Positions 16,671 to 23,207 of a stretch of DNA of 31,378 nt are shown here, piece after piece. How positions within the stretch are numbered: position 1 is the stretch's first letter; each line of letters opens with the position of its first letter. A program made the position numbers and the translations under genes. Origin of the DNA: a virus (taxonomy: Duplodnaviria > Heunggongvirae > Uroviricota > Caudoviricetes). The notes beneath the pieces were generated by a model. It did not search any database. It saw nothing but the letters and a program-made list of their open reading frames with translations, and was not told the origin of the DNA. The DNA lies in the IMG/VR virus record IMGVR_UViG_2648501787_000011, positions 1-31,378 of that record; one strand, given 5' to 3'.

Positions 16671-18202
16671 AGTAAACCTCCCTCATTTTTCAGGCCGCGT
16701 GTCAGTTTCATCTGGCGGCGCGTGTTGCCTTCTTCCGGTTTCGCCGGGCGGTTCAGGCGGTGCAGCTCGTAACGGTGGCAGTCATCCTTACTGGCAAGGA
16801 AGCCCAGGAAAATGGCCACAGCGGCGTCGCCGTGACGCTTGCGGCCATCACTACCTTTAGTACGGGCATCGTCAATGCCGGGAACACCACGCAGTAACTG
16901 AATGGCCCCGAGGTCATTGATCACGTCTTCATGCTTCGGAAGGATCAGCTCATCATCTTCAAACGCTGCACGGAAACGGGGCATGTTTTCGCGGTAGAAC
17001 GCCACGGACAGCATCACCTGTTCCACCTCATCGCCGTACCGCTCCGCCGCCTGTTCTGCCAGATACTGACCATTCCCCCGTGCATCCATTTTGATACCGT
17101 CACGACGGGGCAGACGATCGCAAAGCCAGAACAGCACCTGCTCCTGCTGTTTAAACGGCACATTGCCAAGCTCAACCAGGAACGGCACCTCGCGGGTGGT
17201 GTCATCGTTCACCGTCACAGGGGCCAGTACGGTCAGGTCACCCGAACGCGCAAAGTCTTCCCCCAGACAGTGGCGCAGGTTCTTCGGGAGTTTTTCCAGC
17301 TCGGGGCGCACCACCGTTTCCAGCCATTCCCGGATATCTGCCCGGCGCTGGCTTTCCGTCAGTGCGTTAAATTCCGGTGTGCCGGTAAAGCGCAACACTT
17401 TCCCGGTGCCACGGGCCGCACGTTCACGCAGTGAGCGGGGGATATACGTGCCGCCGCCGTTTTTCGGGACGCAGTAGTATTCCTCCAGGGCGTCTTCGCG
17501 GGTGGCGGTATTTCTCAGCAGACCTTCTTTCCATTCCGCCTCGGCCTCCGGTGACCACACCATGCCGCGCACCTGACAGATACGCCGGTACAGCCCGTCA
17601 TTGCAGGCGTCATCCAGCGTGATGGTGTGAATGCGGTAATCCCGTTTTCCTGCGCGGCTTTCCTGAATCAGCTGGTTAAACAGGTTGTCCACGCCGTCAT
17701 GGGTGGAAATAAGGCGAATTTTGCCGCCCCATGTTTTCAGCGGCAGCACCGCCTTCAGCAGCTCGTCCAGTTTTTCATGGAACGCGGCCTCGTCGATGGT
17801 GACATTCCCCTGCATCCCGCGAATGTTGCTCGGGTTGCTGGACAGTGCCTTGACCTTAAAACCGCTGGCGAAGTACACGACGAACGTCAGAATGTCCTTG
17901 TCTTCGTCGGTGATCACTTCCTCGCAGATTTCTTCCGCTGCCGCATTAAACGCTTTCGCCCACATCGCCACGGCGTCGATAAATTCGCGGGCCATCTCCT
18001 TATTCGAACCGATATAAAAGTGATCGCGCCCGCCGAATTCCTTCTTCAGCGATGCCGTCAGTGCCGCATCTGCCGCCTCCGCCCAGGTTAAACCGGTACG
18101 GCGGGATTTCTCGGCAATTTTCAGGTCGGCATCATCCGCCACCCAGCGTTTCTGATACGGCAGCAGAACATCGGATTCACTGAACGTGTTCATCTGTGTC
18201 AT
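16667..18202 (-). CDS. Terminase large subunit, Mu gp28-like
   Basis: 511 aa; position between small-terminase-like and portal genes. Confidence 0.8.
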   Translation of the reverse strand: MTQMNTFSESDVLLPYQKRWVADDADLKIAEKSRRTGLTWAEAADAALTASLKKEFGGRDHFYIGSNKEMAREFIDAVAMWAKAFNAAAEEICEEVITDEDKDILTFVVYFASGFKVKALSSNPSNIRGMQGNVTIDEAAFHEKLDELLKAVLPLKTWGGKIRLISTHDGVDNLFNQLIQESRAGKRDYRIHTITLDDACNDGLYRRICQVRGMVWSPEAEAEWKEGLLRNTATREDALEEYYCVPKNGGGTYIPRSLRERAARGTGKVLRFTGTPEFNALTESQRRADIREWLETVVRPELEKLPKNLRHCLGEDFARSGDLTVLAPVTVNDDTTREVPFLVELGNVPFKQQEQVLFWLCDRLPRRDGIKMDARGNGQYLAEQAAERYGDEVEQVMLSVAFYRENMPRFRAAFEDDELILPKHEDVINDLGAIQLLRGVPGIDDARTKGSDGRKRHGDAAVAIFLGFLASKDDCHRYELHRLNRPAKPEEGNTRRQMKLTRGLKNEGGLL

Positions 18203-18780
18203 GCGCTAATCCCCAGAAGTTCACGTTTGATGGTGTCAGCCGCACCACCTGACAGACCGCCCGTTCTGACCAGTTCTTCGGTTTTCTCTGCCATCTCCTG
18301 CGCAAACGCATCGCGGATCGCTTTCTCGCGTTTATGGCTGGTCATGGCTGCCGCTTCCAGACGCTGGGCAACCAGCGCCAGTTGGCCCAGCGCCTTCGGT
18401 GCAACAGGTTTGTCGTCTTCTGCCATCGACATGGACGTTTCAAAGGCCAGCGTTTTTACAAACTCCATCAGCAGCTTGCCGACGTCTGATGTTGGCGCGG
18501 AACCCAGCTTTGCCGCCCAGACCTCGGCCATCTCGCGGGAGGCGCGGATTTTGGCCCCGACTTTTTCCATACGGCTGGCATAGCGGTTTAAGCCCGTCCG
18601 GCTTAACTGCATCTCTTCCGGCAGGTTGTGTTCGTCAATCAGGGCGTTGATGGCTTCGCGGATTTCTTCCTGCGTGTGCCGCTTTTCCCGCAGCATCTGA
18701 TGTAACTGCTCCCGGATGCTGTCCGGAAGTAAATCCACTTTGGAAAGACGGCCACGGGTGGGGCGTTGTTCATTTTCCAT
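18199..18780 (-). CDS. Probable terminase small subunit, Mu gp27-like
   Basis: 193 aa; immediately upstream of and overlapping the large terminase. Confidence 0.6.
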   Translation of the reverse strand: MENEQRPTRGRLSKVDLLPDSIREQLHQMLREKRHTQEEIREAINALIDEHNLPEEMQLSRTGLNRYASRMEKVGAKIRASREMAEVWAAKLGSAPTSDVGKLLMEFVKTLAFETSMSMAEDDKPVAPKALGQLALVAQRLEAAAMTSHKREKAIRDAFAQEMAEKTEELVRTGGLSGGAADTIKRELLGISA

Positions 18781-19057
18781 CTTCAGACCTCTGCGTTTTC
18801 AGACCGGCGTATATTTCTTCACGAACGGACTGAATATCCTTACTTAACAGCTTCCACAGCCGCGCACATGCCGGTGATGATCGCAGGGCGCGTTTCATGG
18901 GGGTATCCGGTGCATCCGGGTTCCAGGGCTTTCCTGTCTGTTTTTCGTATGCACGGACAATGGCGTTTTGCTCAATATCTGCCAGCACAAGGCAGTACGC
19001 CAGTTGCCGCACGACGGCCCGTTCTCCGCGACTTAACGGCTTCAGTTTTCGGGCCAT
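18770..19057 (-). CDS. Hypothetical protein (late region)
   Basis: 95 aa ORF tightly packed between neighbours. Confidence 0.45.
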   Translation of the reverse strand: MARKLKPLSRGERAVVRQLAYCLVLADIEQNAIVRAYEKQTGKPWNPDAPDTPMKRALRSSPACARLWKLLSKDIQSVREEIYAGLKTQRSEDGK

Positions 19058-19059
19058 GC

Positions 19060-19353
19060 TCAGTCCCTCGCACGGGGTTTTTTAACGCCCGGAACGCTGG
19101 ACAGGCCGTTTGCCACATCCTCGCCGCTGCCGGTGATTTCAGCCACGTAACAGCCGCCCACATCAGACAGACGAACCAGCCCCTGCTCGCGAAGCCATGC
19201 AAGCTGAGTGCGCACCACATCACGGGATACCTTATGACCGTAAGCCTGAAGGCAGGTCTGCAACACGGATTCATTCGCGCTGTCGCCACAGTCCAGCAGG
19301 GAACGCAGCAACACCAGACGACGGTCTTCAGTGAGGATCTCTTTCATCGCCAT
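19060..19353 (-). CDS. Hypothetical protein, possible winged-helix DNA-binding
   Basis: 97 aa; segment KVSRDVVRTQLAWLREQGLV resembles a recognition helix/wing; function unknown. Confidence 0.45.
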   Translation of the reverse strand: MAMKEILTEDRRLVLLRSLLDCGDSANESVLQTCLQAYGHKVSRDVVRTQLAWLREQGLVRLSDVGGCYVAEITGSGEDVANGLSSVPGVKKPRARD

Positions 19354-19658
19354 TAATTTTTTTCCTTTAACTCGTTCTCTAATAACAAATCGCTGATGCG
19401 GGATACCTGGCGGATGGATGGCCCCAGTTCTTTGATTTCTCCCCGCAGATTGCTGATATCCAGTTGCAGGCGGTGGAACTCATCACGGTCGGGTAAATGG
19501 TGTACCTGGCTTTCCACCACCGACACGCGGGAACGGAGTGAATCAAACTCTTCGCGTTTGACGTAGGTTTTCGCCAGAATCAACTGAAGCAGGTTTATTC
19601 CTGTCATCAGCAATGCCCACAGAATGGGCCAGTTGGCTCTGATCATTTCCCAGGACAC
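19353..19658 (-). CDS. Membrane-anchored coiled-coil protein (spanin/releasin-like candidate)
   Basis: 101 aa; N-terminal hydrophobic helix (WPILWALLMTGINLLQLIL) followed by coiled-coil; in lysis cluster. Confidence 0.5.
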   Translation of the reverse strand: MSWEMIRANWPILWALLMTGINLLQLILAKTYVKREEFDSLRSRVSVVESQVHHLPDRDEFHRLQLDISNLRGEIKELGPSIRQVSRISDLLLENELKEKN

Positions 19659-19870
19659 GTTTTCCTCCTGCGTTCCCGAATATGCTGACAGTCAATACAG
19701 GTCACCACATCCGGCAGCGCCGCAAGGCGTTGTGCCGGAATAACGTTCCCACAGTCATTGCAGCAGCCCCGACTATGGGGCGCTTCTTTTGTCCGCGTCT
19801 GCCAGGCGTTAACGACGCTCTGACGTTCGTTCATAACCACTTCACTGATGCGGTCGATTTCGTCGGTCAT
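19643..19870 (-). CDS. TraR/DksA-family C4 zinc-finger protein
   Basis: 75 aa with CCNDCGNVIP...CIDCQ (CxxC-N17-CxxC) motif characteristic of TraR/DksA-type zinc fingers. Confidence 0.6.
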   Translation of the reverse strand: MTDEIDRISEVVMNERQSVVNAWQTRTKEAPHSRGCCNDCGNVIPAQRLAALPDVVTCIDCQHIRERRRKTCPGK

Positions 19871-20475
19871 TTCGGCCCCGCAGACATTTTGTGACGGCTC
19901 GATTTGCTGTACCGGGCAAAGCCGTCCATGGTTCTTACTCCGAGATAGCCCAGCGCCGGGGTAAGCAACATCAGCGTGATATCCCAGTCCGGTGACGGCA
20001 TATGCAGTGTGATACCTCTGGCACCGGCAATGGCTCCGGCAATCTGGCCACAGGAGAGCAACAGCACATAGGTCAGACTGCTGTAACAGGAAAGACGGGC
20101 CAGCAGCGGGCGCGTCTGGCGCACATAGCTGTCCGCAGCGTTGTCACCATTGCGGATGGTTTCCTGCTGTTCGTGATGCGCGGCCTGCTCGTCAGCCAGC
20201 ACCAGCTTCTGCCGTTCCACCTCAAGCTGTTGTAACTGGACTTTCAGCGTTTCCAGTTGCATCAGTTGCTCCGGTGACAACGCCGTCAGTTGTTGTTCCA
20301 GAATGCGTTGCTGTTCGGTAACCGGCAGGCTTTCCCGGACGCTTTCCACCATACCGGCCACCGAGTCAGCGGCGGCAGATGTGCTACCACCAAACCAGCG
20401 CCCGACGGAACGAATCAGCCCCGGCCCGGCTTTCAGCAGAACAGAGGCGATGCCTGAAAGGGTTAACGGATCCAT
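19867..20475 (-). CDS. Hypothetical coiled-coil protein with C-terminal transmembrane segments (lysis-associated candidate)
   Basis: 202 aa; Q/L-rich coiled-coil centre; two hydrophobic helices near C-terminus. Confidence 0.5.
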   Translation of the reverse strand: MDPLTLSGIASVLLKAGPGLIRSVGRWFGGSTSAAADSVAGMVESVRESLPVTEQQRILEQQLTALSPEQLMQLETLKVQLQQLEVERQKLVLADEQAAHHEQQETIRNGDNAADSYVRQTRPLLARLSCYSSLTYVLLLSCGQIAGAIAGARGITLHMPSPDWDITLMLLTPALGYLGVRTMDGFARYSKSSRHKMSAGPK

Positions 20476-20873
20476 GAATCCCCCTTATGAAAACTGCGCT
20501 GATGTTTATAAAGTGCCGCGCAAAAGATACCGCCCAGCCAGAACGCCAGCTGATAAGGCTCCTTCAGATAAAGAAGGCCGAATGTCAGCATGAAAAGACC
20601 AACGGCCCAGACCACCCATGACCACACGACAATTCGAAGGGAGGCGGCCCGGAAACGCCTTTTGGGTTGCAGGCGATAAGGTACGTTGCCCAGCGGGAAA
20701 CTGTGAATCAGGCAGAGTGTCGCGCCGTATGCCAGCACCATGACCGCAAACGCCCGCCATCCGGCAAAACAGCTTGCCAGAAAAAGTACTGCCGACAGTC
20801 CCAGAAACGACCACTGGCACAACATAAAGCGGGAGTAAATAACGCGAACAAAAAGACTATTCATTCTGTGCAT
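20463..20873 (-). CDS. Polytopic membrane protein (holin-like candidate)
   Basis: About 136 aa from ATG 20873 (AAGGA 8 nt upstream) with 3-4 predicted TM helices. Track ORF extends to 21044 but that part overlaps the preceding ORF and is Arg/Trp-rich. Confidence 0.5.
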   Translation of the reverse strand: MHRMNSLFVRVIYSRFMLCQWSFLGLSAVLFLASCFAGWRAFAVMVLAYGATLCLIHSFPLGNVPYRLQPKRRFRAASLRIVVWSWVVWAVGLFMLTFGLLYLKEPYQLAFWLGGIFCAALYKHQRSFHKGDSWIR

Positions 20874-21084
20874 TGAGTTTTTCCTTGTACTTCTGGCACT
20901 GCCAGAAAATGTCCCGTGTATCCACGGAGTTCCAGCCACGCATGTAGTAGCTGGCGTGTGTACCGTCATGACCGGTATAGTCCACCGGCTCTGGCGGCGG
21001 ACCTCCGGCCATACGATGTAAAACCTCCTGACGCAGGCGGTCACGCCGCCCGGCTCTCAGCGAGGCATCCCAGCCTTTACCCAT
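20857..21084 (-). CDS. Hypothetical protein immediately downstream of endolysin
   Basis: 75 aa; start ~2 nt after the endolysin stop; no TM segment or lipobox. Confidence 0.4.
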   Translation of the reverse strand: MGKGWDASLRAGRRDRLRQEVLHRMAGGPPPEPVDYTGHDGTHASYYMRGWNSVDTRDIFWQCQKYKEKLNAQNE

Positions 21085-21085
21085 A

Positions 21086-21682
21086 TCACCCCCGCGTGGC
21101 GGACATGATGCCTAAAGGGGTATCGATGATTTCCAGACAGGCGTCGGTCAGCTTTTCCATGCGGTTAAACCAGCCGTTCAGGTATTTACCCTGGGCGGGT
21201 TTTGACTTGATGATGTCGGCATAAAAGCGGGAACGACGGACAATGCAGCGGGCCAGCAACCAGTCCGGGGTGGACAGACTCACGGCCTTACGGGTACGCG
21301 GGCCGATGATGCCGTCAGCATCCACATCAGCGGCTTCCTGCAAAATCCTGATAGCTTTTTTAACGCCATGCTGAACGGCTGCATCGAACACAAACATCGC
21401 CACGCCATCAGGCCACTGGTCACATCCGGCAGGCAGCCAGTAATCGCGCCAGTAAATCTGCGCGACCTGTTCGCGGGTTAAATCCCTGATGCGGGTATCC
21501 GGTTTACCGTCGCCGCTGACATCGGTTTTGCCGTCAATCACACCGTCGCGGCGGTCAGAAATGCCGTATTTGGTTTCGCCGCCACGGTCAGTGGGGTCAT
21601 TGACATAGACGCCTTCGATATCGGGACGCAGAATAAAATTCAGCGCATGTTCAAAGGCCGGGGAGAATTTCAGATTTTCCAT
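21086..21682 (-). CDS. Endolysin, GH108-type N-terminal domain plus peptidoglycan-binding domain
   Basis: 198 aa; N-terminal motif IEGVYVNDPTDRGGETKYGISD matches the GH108 signature EGGY-N...D-GG-T-YGI; no N-terminal hydrophobic SAR segment; AGGTG RBS 7 nt upstream. Confidence 0.75.
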   Translation of the reverse strand: MENLKFSPAFEHALNFILRPDIEGVYVNDPTDRGGETKYGISDRRDGVIDGKTDVSGDGKPDTRIRDLTREQVAQIYWRDYWLPAGCDQWPDGVAMFVFDAAVQHGVKKAIRILQEAADVDADGIIGPRTRKAVSLSTPDWLLARCIVRRSRFYADIIKSKPAQGKYLNGWFNRMEKLTDACLEIIDTPLGIMSATRG

Positions 21683-21737
21683 AAAAGCACCTGTGAAGCA
21701 GATTTAAACGTGGTCTGTTTCATGGTGCCGGAGGCAT

Positions 21738-21761
21738 AAAAAAAGCCGGATTTACCGGCTT
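21738..21761 (-). terminator. Rho-independent terminator (minus strand) between secreted-protein gene and lys
   Basis: Same AAGCCGG-TAAAT-CCGGCTT hairpin plus T7 tract as at 14177-14200 (27-nt identity). Confidence 0.6.
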
Positions 21762-21781
21762 CATTGAATTAAAAAAGATGA

Positions 21782-22261
21782 CTACTCATCACCTTTGATG
21801 GAGCAATCTATTACCATATCGTTACCCATCTTGAGAAATTTGGTTTGCATGAGAAAACCCTGTATCACATCAGTTAACCCATACCCTTCAACTTTTGTAG
21901 CTGAAACTACCATGTCAATAATTCGTTTCTGCTGTTTCTCTGTTAGTTCGCCAATTGCTGACTCCGCAACTCGCGAGCATGCCACAAAAGAAGACAACAC
22001 ACCTGAAGGATTGTTTTCATAATCCTTCACTGTCGTCGTTGAGCTGACGACTTTATTGTTGATCGTAAATACCCCGAATTTACTGTGGGCAGTTTCTGTT
22101 CCACCGTTCTTAATTGAATCGCCCCCTTTAAGAGGCTTCCAGCTATTTAGTGCAATGAGGTCTTTTTCTGTAAGACGTTTTTTGATGACATCTTCAGCTG
22201 GCAGTTTTGCCGCATTCGCGCAAAATACGCCCAGTAAAAGTATAAGAGGAAAGTATTTCAT
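21782..22261 (-). CDS. AT-rich secreted/periplasmic protein of unknown function (moron candidate)
   Basis: 159 aa with clear signal peptide MKYFPLILLLGVFCANA; lower GC than flanking phage genes; ATG overlaps the mor stop (ATGA). Confidence 0.65.
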   Translation of the reverse strand: MKYFPLILLLGVFCANAAKLPAEDVIKKRLTEKDLIALNSWKPLKGGDSIKNGGTETAHSKFGVFTINNKVVSSTTTVKDYENNPSGVLSSFVACSRVAESAIGELTEKQQKRIIDMVVSATKVEGYGLTDVIQGFLMQTKFLKMGNDMVIDCSIKGDE

Positions 22262-22659
22262 GACTCATCCTTAAATAGTTGCATTTGATATTTTTCACGC
22301 TCCAGTCGGCGCATTCTTTTGATGGCCTGATATACCGTTTTGTATGTCACTTTGTAACGCTGCACCAGCTCCGCTACGTTTTTCCCATCAAAATCATGCC
22401 AGATGCGCATGTCTCTGATAAGATTTTCCAGTATTTTCCCTTTCGGAACATATACCTGAATCCCACCGATATGATTGCAAATCGCCACTACCAGCTCAAG
22501 GGAGTGGGCAGGGTTAACTCCAAGCCTTATCAGCTCCTGTCGCAACAGAGCATTCAGCTCAGCCAGTAAAGATGGGAATCCCGATTTTTCCTGAACATCA
22601 TCAAAATATTCAAGGATACTGTCGTCCTGATAATCACCAAATAAATCTAGCTCTTTCAT
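22258..22659 (-). CDS. mor: Mor/C-family transcriptional activator (Mor by position)
   Basis: 133 aa; C-terminal HTH GKNVAELVQRYKVTYKTVYQAIKRMRR and N-terminal LFGDYQDD resemble Mu Mor; ATGA overlap with upstream gemA-like gene. Confidence 0.75.
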   Translation of the reverse strand: MKELDLFGDYQDDSILEYFDDVQEKSGFPSLLAELNALLRQELIRLGVNPAHSLELVVAICNHIGGIQVYVPKGKILENLIRDMRIWHDFDGKNVAELVQRYKVTYKTVYQAIKRMRRLEREKYQMQLFKDES

Positions 22660-23207
22660 AGAACTATTCTCCCGCTGTTTCTGGCGCGGGCATACGCACT
22701 GGTCAGTGCATCATATCCGCGCAGTTCCCGCCCGGTTTCGCTCACAGGTAAAGGCACGCCATGTCGGGCAAAGGCTTCCCGAATGCAGCGCATATGCCAC
22801 TGTTTGAGCGTTTCGAGCACAACCTGCAACGATTCCCCATGACACCAGGCAAGCGTGGAAACACCCTGACCGCCATTACGTCTGGCCGTCAGGCGTTCAA
22901 CGTATTTGTCCAGCGCGACGTCGCTGATATCGGAGACGAAACCATCAAGAAACATCTGCTGCCAGATTTTATAAATCTTCTCGCGCGGTGTGACATACCC
23001 CTTAAAGCGACGGCGGGGATGTTTTTTCTGCTTCTTAAAACCGCGCTCTTTCATGGCATTGAGCACCTGTTCCAGTTGTGTAACGGACAGCTCGCGGCAA
23101 CTGGTCTTGCCCGTGCACTGCACCAGAAAGGCGCGGTAAGTGTCATCGTCGAGGTGCAACTCCCGGCGGGCAACATGAATTAATTTAATCAGGGATGTGC
23201 GGCTCAT
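22656..23207 (-). CDS. gemA: GemA-like protein (Mu gp16)
   Basis: 183 aa; directly upstream of mor with overlapping stop/start, as gemA-mor in Mu. Confidence 0.6.
   Translation of the reverse strand: MSRTSLIKLIHVARRELHLDDDTYRAFLVQCTGKTSCRELSVTQLEQVLNAMKERGFKKQKKHPRRRFKGYVTPREKIYKIWQQMFLDGFVSDISDVALDKYVERLTARRNGGQGVSTLAWCHGESLQVVLETLKQWHMRCIREAFARHGVPLPVSETGRELRGYDALTSAYARARNSGRIVL

What the first reader, a model, noticed from the sequence alone, without database searches (positions are those of the whole stretch)
19353..21084. Lysis cluster with a soluble GH108-type endolysin, two membrane proteins, a membrane-anchored coiled-coil protein and a TraR/DksA zinc finger
The endolysin has no N-terminal hydrophobic SAR segment, unlike the Mu endolysin as I recall it, so a holin-type partner is expected. 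Candidates are the 136-aa polytopic membrane protein, the 202-aa coiled-coil protein with C-terminal TM helices, and the 101-aa N-anchored coiled-coil protein. No lipoprotein o-spanin is evident. The 75-aa C4 zinc-finger gene embedded here may modulate host transcription.
Basis: partly seen in the sequence, partly recalled or inferred. Interest (0 to 1): 0.4.

Follow-up and report, generated by a model that had tools for sequence, protein, structure and literature searches.

The report
Mu-like prophage lysis operon, TeaA-type holin
This is the ordinary cell-bursting gene cluster of a Mu-like prophage of E. coli: a soluble wall-cutting enzyme most likely let out by a 202-aa membrane protein of the same family as the tested holin of cholera phage ICP1, with Mu-type accessory genes and no recognisable outer-membrane spanin.

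Summary

The 202-aa protein is the best holin candidate. It falls in the same PHROG as ICP1 TeaA, an experimentally tested holin. It is related to Pfam GTA_holin_3TM, and its relatives follow endolysins of five enzyme types in unrelated phages.

The 101-aa protein belongs to the Mu gp25 "releasin" family. The 75-aa protein is a Mu gp18 homologue. The 136-aa protein is an enterobacterial add-on in the position of Mu gp19, absent from Vibrio and Shewanella relatives, so it is at most a modulator.

No lipoprotein spanin exists; the same scan recovers Mu gp23.1. Pairing of DUF2730 with soluble GH108 endolysins was already reported (Chamblee 2022), and near-identical prophages sit in about 1% of complete E. 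coli genomes. It is a new member of a known kind, of modest interest. Two questions stay open: what DUF2730 does here, and how the outer membrane is breached.

The parts
21742..21762 (-). GC-rich hairpin followed by a T-run (terminator-like), lying between the upstream 159-aa gene and the endolysin. It is nearly identical to the element in Mu's mor-gene 18 intergenic region, which holds the middle promoter Pm.
   Evidence: Terminator scan. Alignment with Mu and Klebsiella phage Kp4866-3 shows AAGCCGGTNAATCCGGCTTTTTTTA conserved. No sigma-70 consensus promoter is found in 18600-22800, as expected for an activator-dependent promoter. That it marks a Mor-dependent promoter is inferred.
21086..21682 (-). 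Soluble endolysin, 198 aa: GH108 muramidase domain plus PG_binding_3. It has no membrane or SAR segment.
   Evidence: Pfam and PHROG endolysin hits. No hydrophobic window. The ORF cannot be extended upstream. Closest solved structure is NMB1012 (2IKB), E=4.7e-20, with the EG(G/V)Y glutamate aligned.
20857..21084 (-). 75-aa soluble protein, homologue of Mu gp18 (E18, Pfam Phage_Mu_gp18). Function unknown.
   Evidence: 69.6% identical to Mu E18 by tblastn. Precomputed PF26867, which is named Phage_Mu_gp18. Matches the N-terminal part of phrog_2121. Homologues sit between endolysin and holin in Vibrio, Shewanella and Pseudoalteromonas Mu-like phages.
20463..20873 (-). 136-aa membrane protein with four helices, predicted N-in/C-in, a basic C-terminal tail and an MHRM start. 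It is a lineage-restricted accessory gene, possibly a holin modulator.
   Evidence: Hydropathy. phrog_12596. Only 13 clusters, almost all from E. coli. The Kp4866-3 counterpart at the same position is 29.7% identical. Absent from Vibrio and Shewanella relatives. The LASC lipobox is not conserved. The AF2 model is low confidence, pLDDT 58.9.
19867..20475 (-). 202-aa TeaA / GTA_holin_3TM-type holin candidate. Amphipathic N-terminal helix, cytoplasmic coiled-coil domain with the conserved motif ETIRNGDNAxDxYVRQTRP, a hairpin of two C-terminal membrane helices, and a basic tail.
   Evidence: phrog_1544 E=1.7e-58, the PHROG that ICP1 TeaA also matches (E=1.7e-53). The family profile finds TeaA as the only hit in 45 kb of ICP1, E=7e-7. 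34 of 79 family representatives hit PF11351. AF2 pLDDT 91, and the top BFVD hit is 'Holin of 3TMs', E=1.1e-7. Relatives lie next to endolysins.
19643..19870 (-). 75-aa TraR-family C4 zinc finger. Probably binds the RNA polymerase secondary channel.
   Evidence: PF01258 E=1.9e-10. TIGR02419 at 61.8 bits, above the 59.7 cutoff. Residues 2-70 align with residues 2-70 of TraR in PDB 5W1S chain M, E=2.1e-6, including the N-terminal D-E-x-D.
19353..19658 (-). 101-aa DUF2730 protein of the Mu gp25 'releasin' family. N-terminal membrane helix and cytoplasmic coiled coil.
   Evidence: PF10805 at 104.5 bits, full length. 26% identical to Mu gp25 over 94 residues, E=2e-11. Hydropathy and flanking charges.
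19060..19353 (-). 97-aa homologue of Mu gp26 (VpaChn25_0724 family, winged-helix-like). It is part of the conserved block between the lysis genes and the small terminase.
   Evidence: 61% identical to Mu gp26, E=2e-42. NF050184 at 122 bits.
18770..19057 (-). 95-aa basic protein of unknown function (phrog_8988). Absent from Mu and the Vibrio relatives.
   Evidence: PHROG hit. A counterpart exists in Kp4866-3. A homologue in Pseudoalteromonas phage HS6 lies inside its lysis cassette.
18199..18780 (-). Mu gp27-type small terminase subunit. It marks the downstream boundary of the cluster.
   Evidence: PF11985 E=4.5e-54.

Best explanation
This is the late lysis operon of a Mu-like, transposable prophage.

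Proposed mechanism:
1. The operon is transcribed from an activator-dependent promoter downstream of a hairpin/T-run element shared with Mu's Pm region (inferred).
2. The GH108 muramidase accumulates folded in the cytoplasm. The absence of any export signal is shown.
3. The 202-aa TeaA / GTA-holin-type protein sits in the inner membrane through its C-terminal two-helix hairpin, with its large coiled-coil domain in the cytoplasm. [quoted passage not shown] Family membership is shown; the activity is inferred from the tested relatives ICP1 TeaA and RcGTA rcc00556.
4. The DUF2730 protein, the gp18 homologue and the 136-aa membrane protein are accessory. They probably tune the timing or triggering of the holin. 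By position, the 136-aa protein matches ICP1's antiholin ArrA, which is encoded right next to teaA. All of this is inferred.
5. The TraR-like protein binds the RNA polymerase secondary channel and reprograms host transcription late in infection. This is inferred from homology to F TraR.
6. There is no canonical spanin. The outer membrane is breached by an unidentified component, or by mechanical failure once the wall is gone.
For: Endolysin domains and lack of any hydrophobic segment or possible upstream start.

cc202 and ICP1 TeaA both match phrog_1544 over their full length (E=1.7e-58 and E=1.7e-53). A profile of 79 representatives hits TeaA alone among 432 ICP1 ORFs (E=7e-7). 34 of the 79 hit PF11351, best E=8.4e-9. 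The AF2 model has pLDDT 91, and its best match among viral structures is annotated 'Holin of 3TMs' (E=1.1e-7, all 202 columns aligned).

TeaA collapses the PMF and is triggered by DNP (PMC7182436). rcc00556 is required for RcGTA release (PMC5026251).

Family members lie directly after, or one small gene after, endolysins of five enzyme types: GH108, DUF5675, LD-endopeptidase, Amidase_2 and Peptidase_M15_3.

In the minimal Mu-like version (Mor, GH108, cc protein, TraR, DUF2730), the cc protein is the only multi-helix membrane protein next to a soluble endolysin.

DUF2730, gp18, gp26 and gp27 homologies to Mu. TraR alignment.
Against: The window protein scores 19.5 bits on PF11351, below the gathering score of 24.8. 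TeaA itself does not hit PF11351 by hmmscan, so the link to the Pfam family runs through intermediates.

No functional test was possible. In Janthinobacterium phage Donnerlittchen a separate annotated holin precedes the endolysin and the cc homologue follows it, which is the usual spanin position. The family need not therefore be the sole or primary holin everywhere.

The roles of DUF2730, gp18 and the 136-aa protein are guesses. The prophage may be inactive in this host.
Confidence: 0.68

Rival explanations
1. The 136-aa polytopic protein is the real holin, and the 202-aa protein is its regulator or antiholin.
For: It is small, has four helices with a positive-inside N-in/C-in layout and a charged C-terminal tail. 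It has an M-H-R-M start that recalls the dual-start motifs of the lambda and phage 21 holins. It is translationally coupled just upstream of the 202-aa gene. It evolves fast, as holins do: 29.7% identity to the Klebsiella counterpart against 68% for its neighbour.
Against: It is absent from Vibrio, Shewanella and metagenomic relatives that also have soluble endolysins. It matches no holin family. It is frameshifted or fused in some E. coli prophages. Mu gp19, its positional analogue, was tested and is neither a holin nor needed for lysis (PMC9239132). The dual-start resemblance is recalled from memory and is not conserved in Kp4866-3.
Confidence: 0.12
2. The DUF2730 protein is the component that lets the endolysin out, for example by forming or nucleating a hydrophilic channel, and the 202-aa protein has another role.
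For: Full-length DUF2730 match with 26% identity to the Mu releasin gp25. The gene lies five genes downstream of the endolysin, as in all phage cases surveyed by Chamblee et al., who list channel formation among their models.
Against: The releasin was defined by release of a membrane-tethered SAR endolysin that depends on basic residues at its N-terminus, and this endolysin has no such anchor. The protein has a single membrane helix. Among the loci examined here, DUF2730 tracks the Mu-like backbone rather than the endolysin or holin type: it is present in Mu-like loci and absent where TeaA-like genes occur in non-Mu phages.
Confidence: 0.08
3. The 202-aa protein replaces the missing spanin, or otherwise acts on the outer membrane after the wall is degraded.
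For: No spanin is present. In Donnerlittchen the gene order is holin, endolysin, cc homologue, which is the usual spanin slot. The protein has a long coiled coil and a strongly amphipathic N-terminal helix.
Against: Arginines before the first membrane helix and a basic tail after the second place both ends of the hairpin, and so the coiled-coil domain, in the cytoplasm. That is the wrong side for spanning the periplasm. The tested relative TeaA acts on the inner membrane by collapsing the PMF.
Confidence: 0.06

Closest known systems
Vibrio cholerae phage ICP1 TeaA holin, with the adjacent ArrA antiholin (Hays and Seed 2020, PMC7182436)
   Same: The 202-aa protein and TeaA match the same PHROG (phrog_1544) over their full length. 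They share the same architecture: an N-terminal helix ending in WFGG, a coiled region and two C-terminal membrane helices. In both phages a polytopic membrane protein is encoded immediately upstream.
   Different: ICP1 is a large lytic myovirus and the gene is not in a Mu-type operon. The 136-aa protein shows no sequence similarity to ArrA. ICP1 has no DUF2730 homologue; ORF139 only resembles one in layout. Lysis inhibition has not been shown here.
RcGTA holin rcc00556 and Pfam PF11351 GTA_holin_3TM
   Same: 34 of 79 family representatives hit PF11351. The best structural match among viral models carries this annotation. The gene is paired with an endolysin.
   Different: The window protein itself scores below the Pfam gathering threshold (19.5 against 24.8 bits). 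It belongs to a divergent branch with its own conserved ETIRxGDN...YVRxTRP motif.
Phage Mu lysis region: gp22 SAR endolysin, gp23/23.1 spanins, gp24, gp25 releasin (Chamblee et al. 2022, PMC9239132)
   Same: Same backbone and gene order: mor, gp18 homologue (70% identical), a membrane protein after gp18, a C4 zinc-finger gene, DUF2730 (26%), gp26 (61%), gp27. The hairpin/T-run upstream is also shared.
   Different: The endolysin is a soluble GH108 enzyme, not a SAR T4-lysozyme type. A TeaA-type holin is present where Mu is holin-less. There is no spanin pair and no C gene between mor and lys. gp18 and its membrane partner lie downstream of the endolysin rather than in a separate middle operon.
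Mu-like phages of Vibrio (1.028.O group, Martha 12B12, vB-Vv-ZX4290), Shewanella MuM16-2 and Klebsiella Kp4866-3
   Same: Same module: endolysin, gp18-like, TeaA-like, TraR, DUF2730, gp26-like, small terminase. The pairing of DUF2730 with GH108 is already tabulated in Chamblee Table S1.
   Different: The marine phages lack the 136-aa and 95-aa genes. Kp4866-3 has both, but its membrane protein is only 30% identical. Some of these phages use a DUF5675 endolysin instead.
F-plasmid TraR (PDB 5W1S, 6N57)
   Same: Same length, the same C-X2-C-X17-C-X2-C finger and the same acidic N-terminus. The alignment covers residues 2-70 of both proteins. It passes TIGR02419.
   Different: It is phage-borne and embedded in a lysis operon. 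Binding to RNA polymerase has not been tested.

Membership tests
TeaA / GTA_holin_3TM holins (phrog_1544, PF11351) | Significant match to the family profile | tested here: met
   phrog_1544 E=1.7e-58 over positions 1-192 of 200, and TeaA matches the same PHROG at E=1.7e-53. The Pfam PF11351 score is only 19.5 bits, below the GA of 24.8, but 34 of 79 homologues match it, best E=8.4e-9.
TeaA / GTA_holin_3TM holins (phrog_1544, PF11351) | Architecture: N-terminal helix, long hydrophilic helical region, two C-terminal membrane helices | tested here: met
   Hydropathy. AF2 model with pLDDT 91, helices at 3-28, 30-45, 68-111, 116-152 and 164-178. Full-length structural match to a 'Holin of 3TMs' model.
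TeaA / GTA_holin_3TM holins (phrog_1544, PF11351) | Encoded next to an endolysin | tested here: met
   In the window it lies three genes downstream. In 10 other loci it is adjacent to an endolysin or separated only by a gp18-like gene.
TeaA / GTA_holin_3TM holins (phrog_1544, PF11351) | Collapses the PMF, is triggered by energy poisons and releases the endolysin | not testable with these tools
   Known only for ICP1 TeaA and RcGTA rcc00556.
DUF2730 / Mu gp25 releasin | Full-length PF10805 match above the gathering score | tested here: met
   104.5 bits against 24.9, profile positions 1-102 of 102. 26% identity to Mu gp25.
DUF2730 / Mu gp25 releasin | N-terminal membrane helix, N-out/C-in, with the gene within five genes downstream of the endolysin | tested here: met
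   Helix at about residues 9-31, followed by K30, K34 and R35. It is the fifth gene after the endolysin.
DUF2730 / Mu gp25 releasin | Acts on a cognate SAR endolysin held in the membrane by N-terminal basic residues | tested here: not met
   The endolysin has no hydrophobic N-terminal segment and cannot be extended. It is a family member by sequence, but the releasin mechanism as defined for Mu cannot apply.
SAR endolysin | Weakly hydrophobic N-terminal signal-anchor-release domain | tested here: not met
Two-component or unimolecular spanin | A lipoprotein with a lipobox (o-spanin or u-spanin), paired with or fused to an inner-membrane-anchored periplasmic coiled-coil protein | tested here: not met
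   No lipobox ORF on the coding strand of the whole window. The only in-gene match (LASC in the 136-aa protein) is not conserved. The scan recovers Mu gp23.1 as a control.
TraR subfamily of DksA/TraR zinc fingers | TIGR02419 above its cutoff, four Cys in C-X2-C-X17-C-X2-C, and an acidic N-terminus | tested here: met
   61.8 bits against 59.7. The cysteine spacing was read from the sequence. The alignment to TraR in 5W1S includes D3, E4 and D6. RNA polymerase binding is not testable.
GH108 muramidase endolysin | PF05838 plus PF09374 above gathering scores, and the catalytic glutamate of the EGGY motif | tested here: met
   84.1 and 63.1 bits. E23 aligns with the EGGY glutamate of NMB1012. That this glutamate is catalytic rests on my recollection of the GH108 literature.
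Mu gp19 family (phrog_4975) | Sequence match of the 136-aa protein | tested here: not met
   BLASTP E=0.18, and the two proteins fall in different PHROGs. It is only a positional analogue.

The most novel reading that the evidence does not exclude
In this widespread branch of Mu-like phages the DUF2730 'releasin' works with a TeaA-type holin and a soluble endolysin. If so, the family would be a general trigger or regulator of inner-membrane lesion formation rather than a device specific to SAR endolysins. The conserved set (gp18-like, TeaA-like, TraR, DUF2730) would then achieve complete lysis of a Gram-negative cell without any spanin. One of the uncharacterised small proteins (gp18 homologue, 95-aa basic protein, 136-aa protein) might supply a new outer-membrane-disrupting or lysis-timing function.
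Probability: 0.2. Interest if true: 0.55.

Novelty: new member of a known kind. Interest (0 to 1): 0.3.

Why it matters
The cluster itself is ordinary. Still, it is a convenient E. coli-resident example of a question the Mu lysis paper left open: what a releasin-family protein does when the endolysin is soluble.

It also links the poorly annotated 'coil containing protein' genes of Mu-like phages to the tested ICP1 holin TeaA. PGAP labels the E. coli copy TatA/TatE, which my scans do not support. Correcting this would improve annotation in hundreds of enterobacterial and Vibrio prophages.

The lack of any spanin in this whole branch makes it a candidate place to look for an alternative way of breaching the outer membrane.

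Tried and rejected
1. The 75-aa gp18 homologue as an RMF/CrpP-like protein. This was a resemblance recalled from memory (MKRQK..., GW motif). Profile searches of PDB and Pfam gave nothing, so I dropped it.

2. The 136-aa protein as an ArrA homologue: BLASTP E=9.2. As a Mu gp19 homologue: E=0.18 and different PHROGs. As a lipoprotein: the LASC lipobox is not conserved.

3. Structure of the 136-aa protein. AF2 with 6 sequences gave pLDDT 58.9, too poor for a fold search, so none was run.

4. ICP1 ORF139 (membrane helix plus coiled coil) as a hidden DUF2730 protein. Neither Pfam nor a local DUF2730 profile matches it.

5. Mu gp24 as a TraR homologue. It has the same Cys spacing and the same position, but no BLAST or Pfam support. 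I left this as a note.

6. The PGAP label 'TatA/TatE family' for the 202-aa protein. It was not reproduced by NCBIfam or Pfam at E<=0.1.

7. A natural gp18-TeaA fusion, which the composite profile phrog_2121 implies. None appeared among 130 family representatives; the longest is 230 aa. The only fused ORF seen was a p75-m136 read-through in one E. coli (P0131).

8. Mapping the Mor-binding dyad onto the upstream region. The papers held give positions but not the sequence, so this is unresolved.

9. No megablast match in the phage collection. Relatives were found only at protein level.
Full report
**What is in the sequence**

The window is a Mu-like prophage read on the minus strand. Going downstream the genes are:
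- gp16/GemA and Mor (22258-22659).
- A low-GC 159-aa gene with a signal peptide (21782-22261).
- A hairpin followed by a T-run (21742-21762).
- A run of translationally coupled genes, each with a Shine-Dalgarno sequence: a 198-aa endolysin (21086-21682), a 75-aa soluble protein (20857-21084), a 136-aa membrane protein (20463-20873), a 202-aa protein (19867-20475), a 75-aa zinc finger (19643-19870), a 101-aa protein (19353-19658), a 97-aa protein (19060-19353) and a 95-aa protein (18770-19057).
- The Mu gp27-type small terminase (18199-18780) and the large terminase.

The stated range stops one base short of the endolysin.

**The endolysin**

It carries Glyco_hydro_108 (E=1e-23) and PG_binding_3 (E=2.9e-17) and matches the PHROG endolysin family. 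Its closest solved relative is NMB1012 (2IKB, E=4.7e-20), with the glutamate of the EGGY motif aligned. No 19-residue window is hydrophobic. The listed ORF already begins at the first start codon after the upstream stop, so moving the start cannot create a SAR domain or signal peptide. The enzyme is therefore cytoplasmic until something opens the inner membrane. The Mu endolysin gp22, by contrast, is a SAR enzyme (PMC9239132).

**The 202-aa protein**

This is the key result.
- It matches phrog_1544 at E=1.7e-58 over essentially the whole profile. ORF137 of Vibrio phage ICP1, which I take to be the holin TeaA from its ORF number and its match to this holin-like family, matches the same PHROG at E=1.7e-53.
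- An exhaustive search of 1.8 billion representative proteins gave 130 relatives, mostly 170-215 aa.
- A profile of 79 of them finds TeaA as the only hit among the 432 ORFs of a 45-kb stretch of ICP1 (E=7e-7).
- 34 of the 79 hit Pfam PF11351 GTA_holin_3TM (best E=8.4e-9). The window protein itself scores 19.5 bits, below the gathering score of 24.8.
- AlphaFold gives a confident all-helical model (pLDDT 91). Its best match among predicted viral structures is a protein annotated 'Holin of 3TMs, for gene-transfer release' (E=1.1e-7, all 202 columns aligned).

Two members of this superfamily have been tested. [quoted passage not shown]

Gene context agrees. Family members lie directly after endolysins, or one small gene after them, and these endolysins are of five enzyme types:
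- GH108: the window, Vibrio 1.028.O, Shewanella MuM16-2, Klebsiella Kp4866-3, Vibrio LP.1 and two metagenomic Mu-like contigs.
- DUF5675: vB-Vv-ZX4290.
- LD-endopeptidase: Janthinobacterium phage Donnerlittchen.
- Amidase_2: Vibrio 431E45.1.
- Peptidase_M15_3: a P22-like contig.

Topology: three arginines precede the first C-terminal membrane helix and a basic tail follows the second, with a short loop between them. Both ends of the hairpin, and so the coiled-coil domain, should be cytoplasmic. The N-terminal helix is strongly amphipathic rather than plainly membrane-spanning. A cytoplasmic coiled coil argues against a spanin-like role.

**The Mu-type accessory genes**

- The 101-aa protein is a full-length DUF2730 protein (104.5 bits), 26% identical to the Mu releasin gp25.
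- The 97-aa protein is 61% identical to Mu gp26.
- The unmentioned 75-aa protein is 69.6% identical to Mu gp18/E18 and carries the Pfam family Phage_Mu_gp18.
- The zinc finger passes the TraR subfamily model TIGR02419. Its residues 2-70 align with residues 2-70 of F-plasmid TraR from an RNA polymerase complex structure, including the acidic N-terminus.
- Mu gp24, in the same position, has the same C-X2-C-X17-C-X2-C spacing but no detectable sequence match.

**The 136-aa protein**

It has four predicted helices with a positive-inside N-in/C-in layout, a basic tail and a conserved MHRM start. It belongs to phrog_12596 and is found almost only in E. coli, in 13 clusters. A 29.7%-identical counterpart sits at the same position in Klebsiella phage Kp4866-3.

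It is absent from the Vibrio, Shewanella and metagenomic versions of the module. The smallest of these is Mor, GH108, TeaA-like, TraR, DUF2730, gp26, gp27. Some E. coli copies are frameshifted or fused.

It follows the gp18 homologue just as Mu gp19 follows gp18, but the two are not detectably related. Mu gp19 and gp20 were proposed as a holin-antiholin pair. [quoted passage not shown]

It also mirrors the position of ICP1's antiholin ArrA beside teaA, again without sequence similarity. I treat it as an accessory protein, possibly a holin modulator, and not as the core holin.

**Spanins**

A six-frame scan for a start codon, a basic and hydrophobic leader and a lipobox cysteine finds nothing on the coding strand anywhere in the window. 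The one exception is a non-conserved LASC inside the first helix of the 136-aa protein. The same scan recovers the Mu o-spanin gp23.1. It finds nothing between endolysin and terminase in the related Mu-like loci. This whole branch lacks a recognisable spanin.

**Regulation**

The hairpin/T-run upstream of the endolysin is nearly identical to the element between mor and gene 18 in Mu, and to the one in Kp4866-3. In Mu that interval contains the Mor-dependent middle promoter. No sigma-70 consensus promoter is present, and no second Mor/C-type gene lies between mor and the endolysin. I infer a Mor-dependent promoter that drives the lysis operon directly. I could not map the Mor site because the papers held do not print the sequence.

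**Mechanism**

1. The soluble muramidase accumulates in the cytoplasm (shown).
2. The TeaA-type protein forms the lethal membrane lesion that releases it. Family membership is shown; the activity is inferred.
3. DUF2730, the gp18 homologue and the 136-aa protein adjust timing (inferred).
4. TraR retunes host transcription (inferred from homology).
5. How the outer membrane is breached is unexplained.

I give the main model 0.68. The rivals are weaker for the reasons listed with each: the 136-aa protein as holin (0.12), DUF2730 as the permeabiliser (0.08), and the 202-aa protein as a spanin substitute (0.06).

**Novelty**

Prophages about 96.7% identical occur in 38 to 53 of 5426 complete E. 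coli genomes. The same module is in sequenced Vibrio, Shewanella, Pseudoalteromonas and Klebsiella phages. The pairing of DUF2730 with soluble GH108 endolysins is tabulated and discussed in Chamblee et al. 2022.

What I did not find stated in the papers read is that the 'coil containing protein' of these Mu-like phages belongs to the TeaA holin family. RefSeq calls the E. coli copy a TatA/TatE subunit, which my scans do not reproduce.

This is a new member of a known kind, with interest of about 0.3. The open points are the role of a releasin-family protein beside a soluble endolysin and the missing spanin.

Noticed in passing
window 21782-22261 (-): A 159-aa protein with a cleavable-looking signal peptide (MKYFPLILLLGVFCANA) in a low-GC stretch (about 47% against 56%) between mor and the endolysin. 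It matches phrog_38744 over its full length. The same slot in relatives holds unrelated secreted proteins or lipoproteins: Vibrio 1.028.O p19, Shewanella p19, a lipoprotein in L017, and a membrane protein in Kp4866-3. It looks like a moron hot spot. A role in exclusion or in the envelope is possible.
   Followed up: partly
window 21742-21762 (-); L010 about 675-700; L006 about 1735-1760: The hairpin plus T-run upstream of the endolysin (AAGCCGGTAAATCCGGCTTTTTTTA) is almost identical to the element between mor and gene 18 of Mu, the region holding the Mor-dependent promoter Pm. There is no C-type second activator between mor and lys. The lysis operon may therefore be driven directly by Mor, giving a two-tier rather than a three-tier cascade.
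   Followed up: partly
window 18770-19057 (-); L011 2754-3035: The 95-aa basic protein between the gp26 and gp27 homologues has a homologue in Pseudoalteromonas phage HS6. There it sits inside the lysis cassette, between the gp18-like gene and the annotated holin. Its N-terminus is a cationic amphipathic segment (hydrophobic moment 0.67, net charge +5).
   Followed up: partly
L010 3025-3219 (Mu gp24): Mu gp24, just upstream of the releasin gene, has the same C-X2-C-X17-C-X2-C spacing as the TraR-like protein in the same position here. BLAST and Pfam do not connect them. It may be a degenerate TraR-type finger.
   Followed up: partly
L001 3868-4476 (RefSeq WP_032239570.1): PGAP names the E. coli homologue of the 202-aa protein 'twin-arginine translocase TatA/TatE family subunit'. 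Neither NCBIfam nor Pfam gives such a hit at E<=0.1. This is probably a misannotation that has spread to many genomes.
   Followed up: yes
phrog_2121; proteins P0129, P0131: PHROG 2121 is a 284-position composite whose N-terminal part matches gp18-like proteins and whose C-terminal part matches TeaA-like proteins, which implies a fused or mis-merged member. I found no natural gp18-TeaA fusion. Some E. coli prophages carry frameshifted or read-through versions that join the gp18 homologue to the 136-aa protein.
   Followed up: partly
L007 19753-20097 (-) (ICP1 ORF139): The ICP1 lysis locus has the same three-part layout as this window: a protein with an N-terminal membrane helix and a cytoplasmic coiled coil, then a polytopic membrane protein, then TeaA. 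ORF139, however, shows no sequence relation to DUF2730.
   Followed up: yes
L005 2208-3462 (Janthinobacterium phage Donnerlittchen): Here a TeaA-family gene follows a class III holin and an LD-endopeptidase, in the slot normally taken by spanins. The family may not have the same role in every phage.
   Followed up: no
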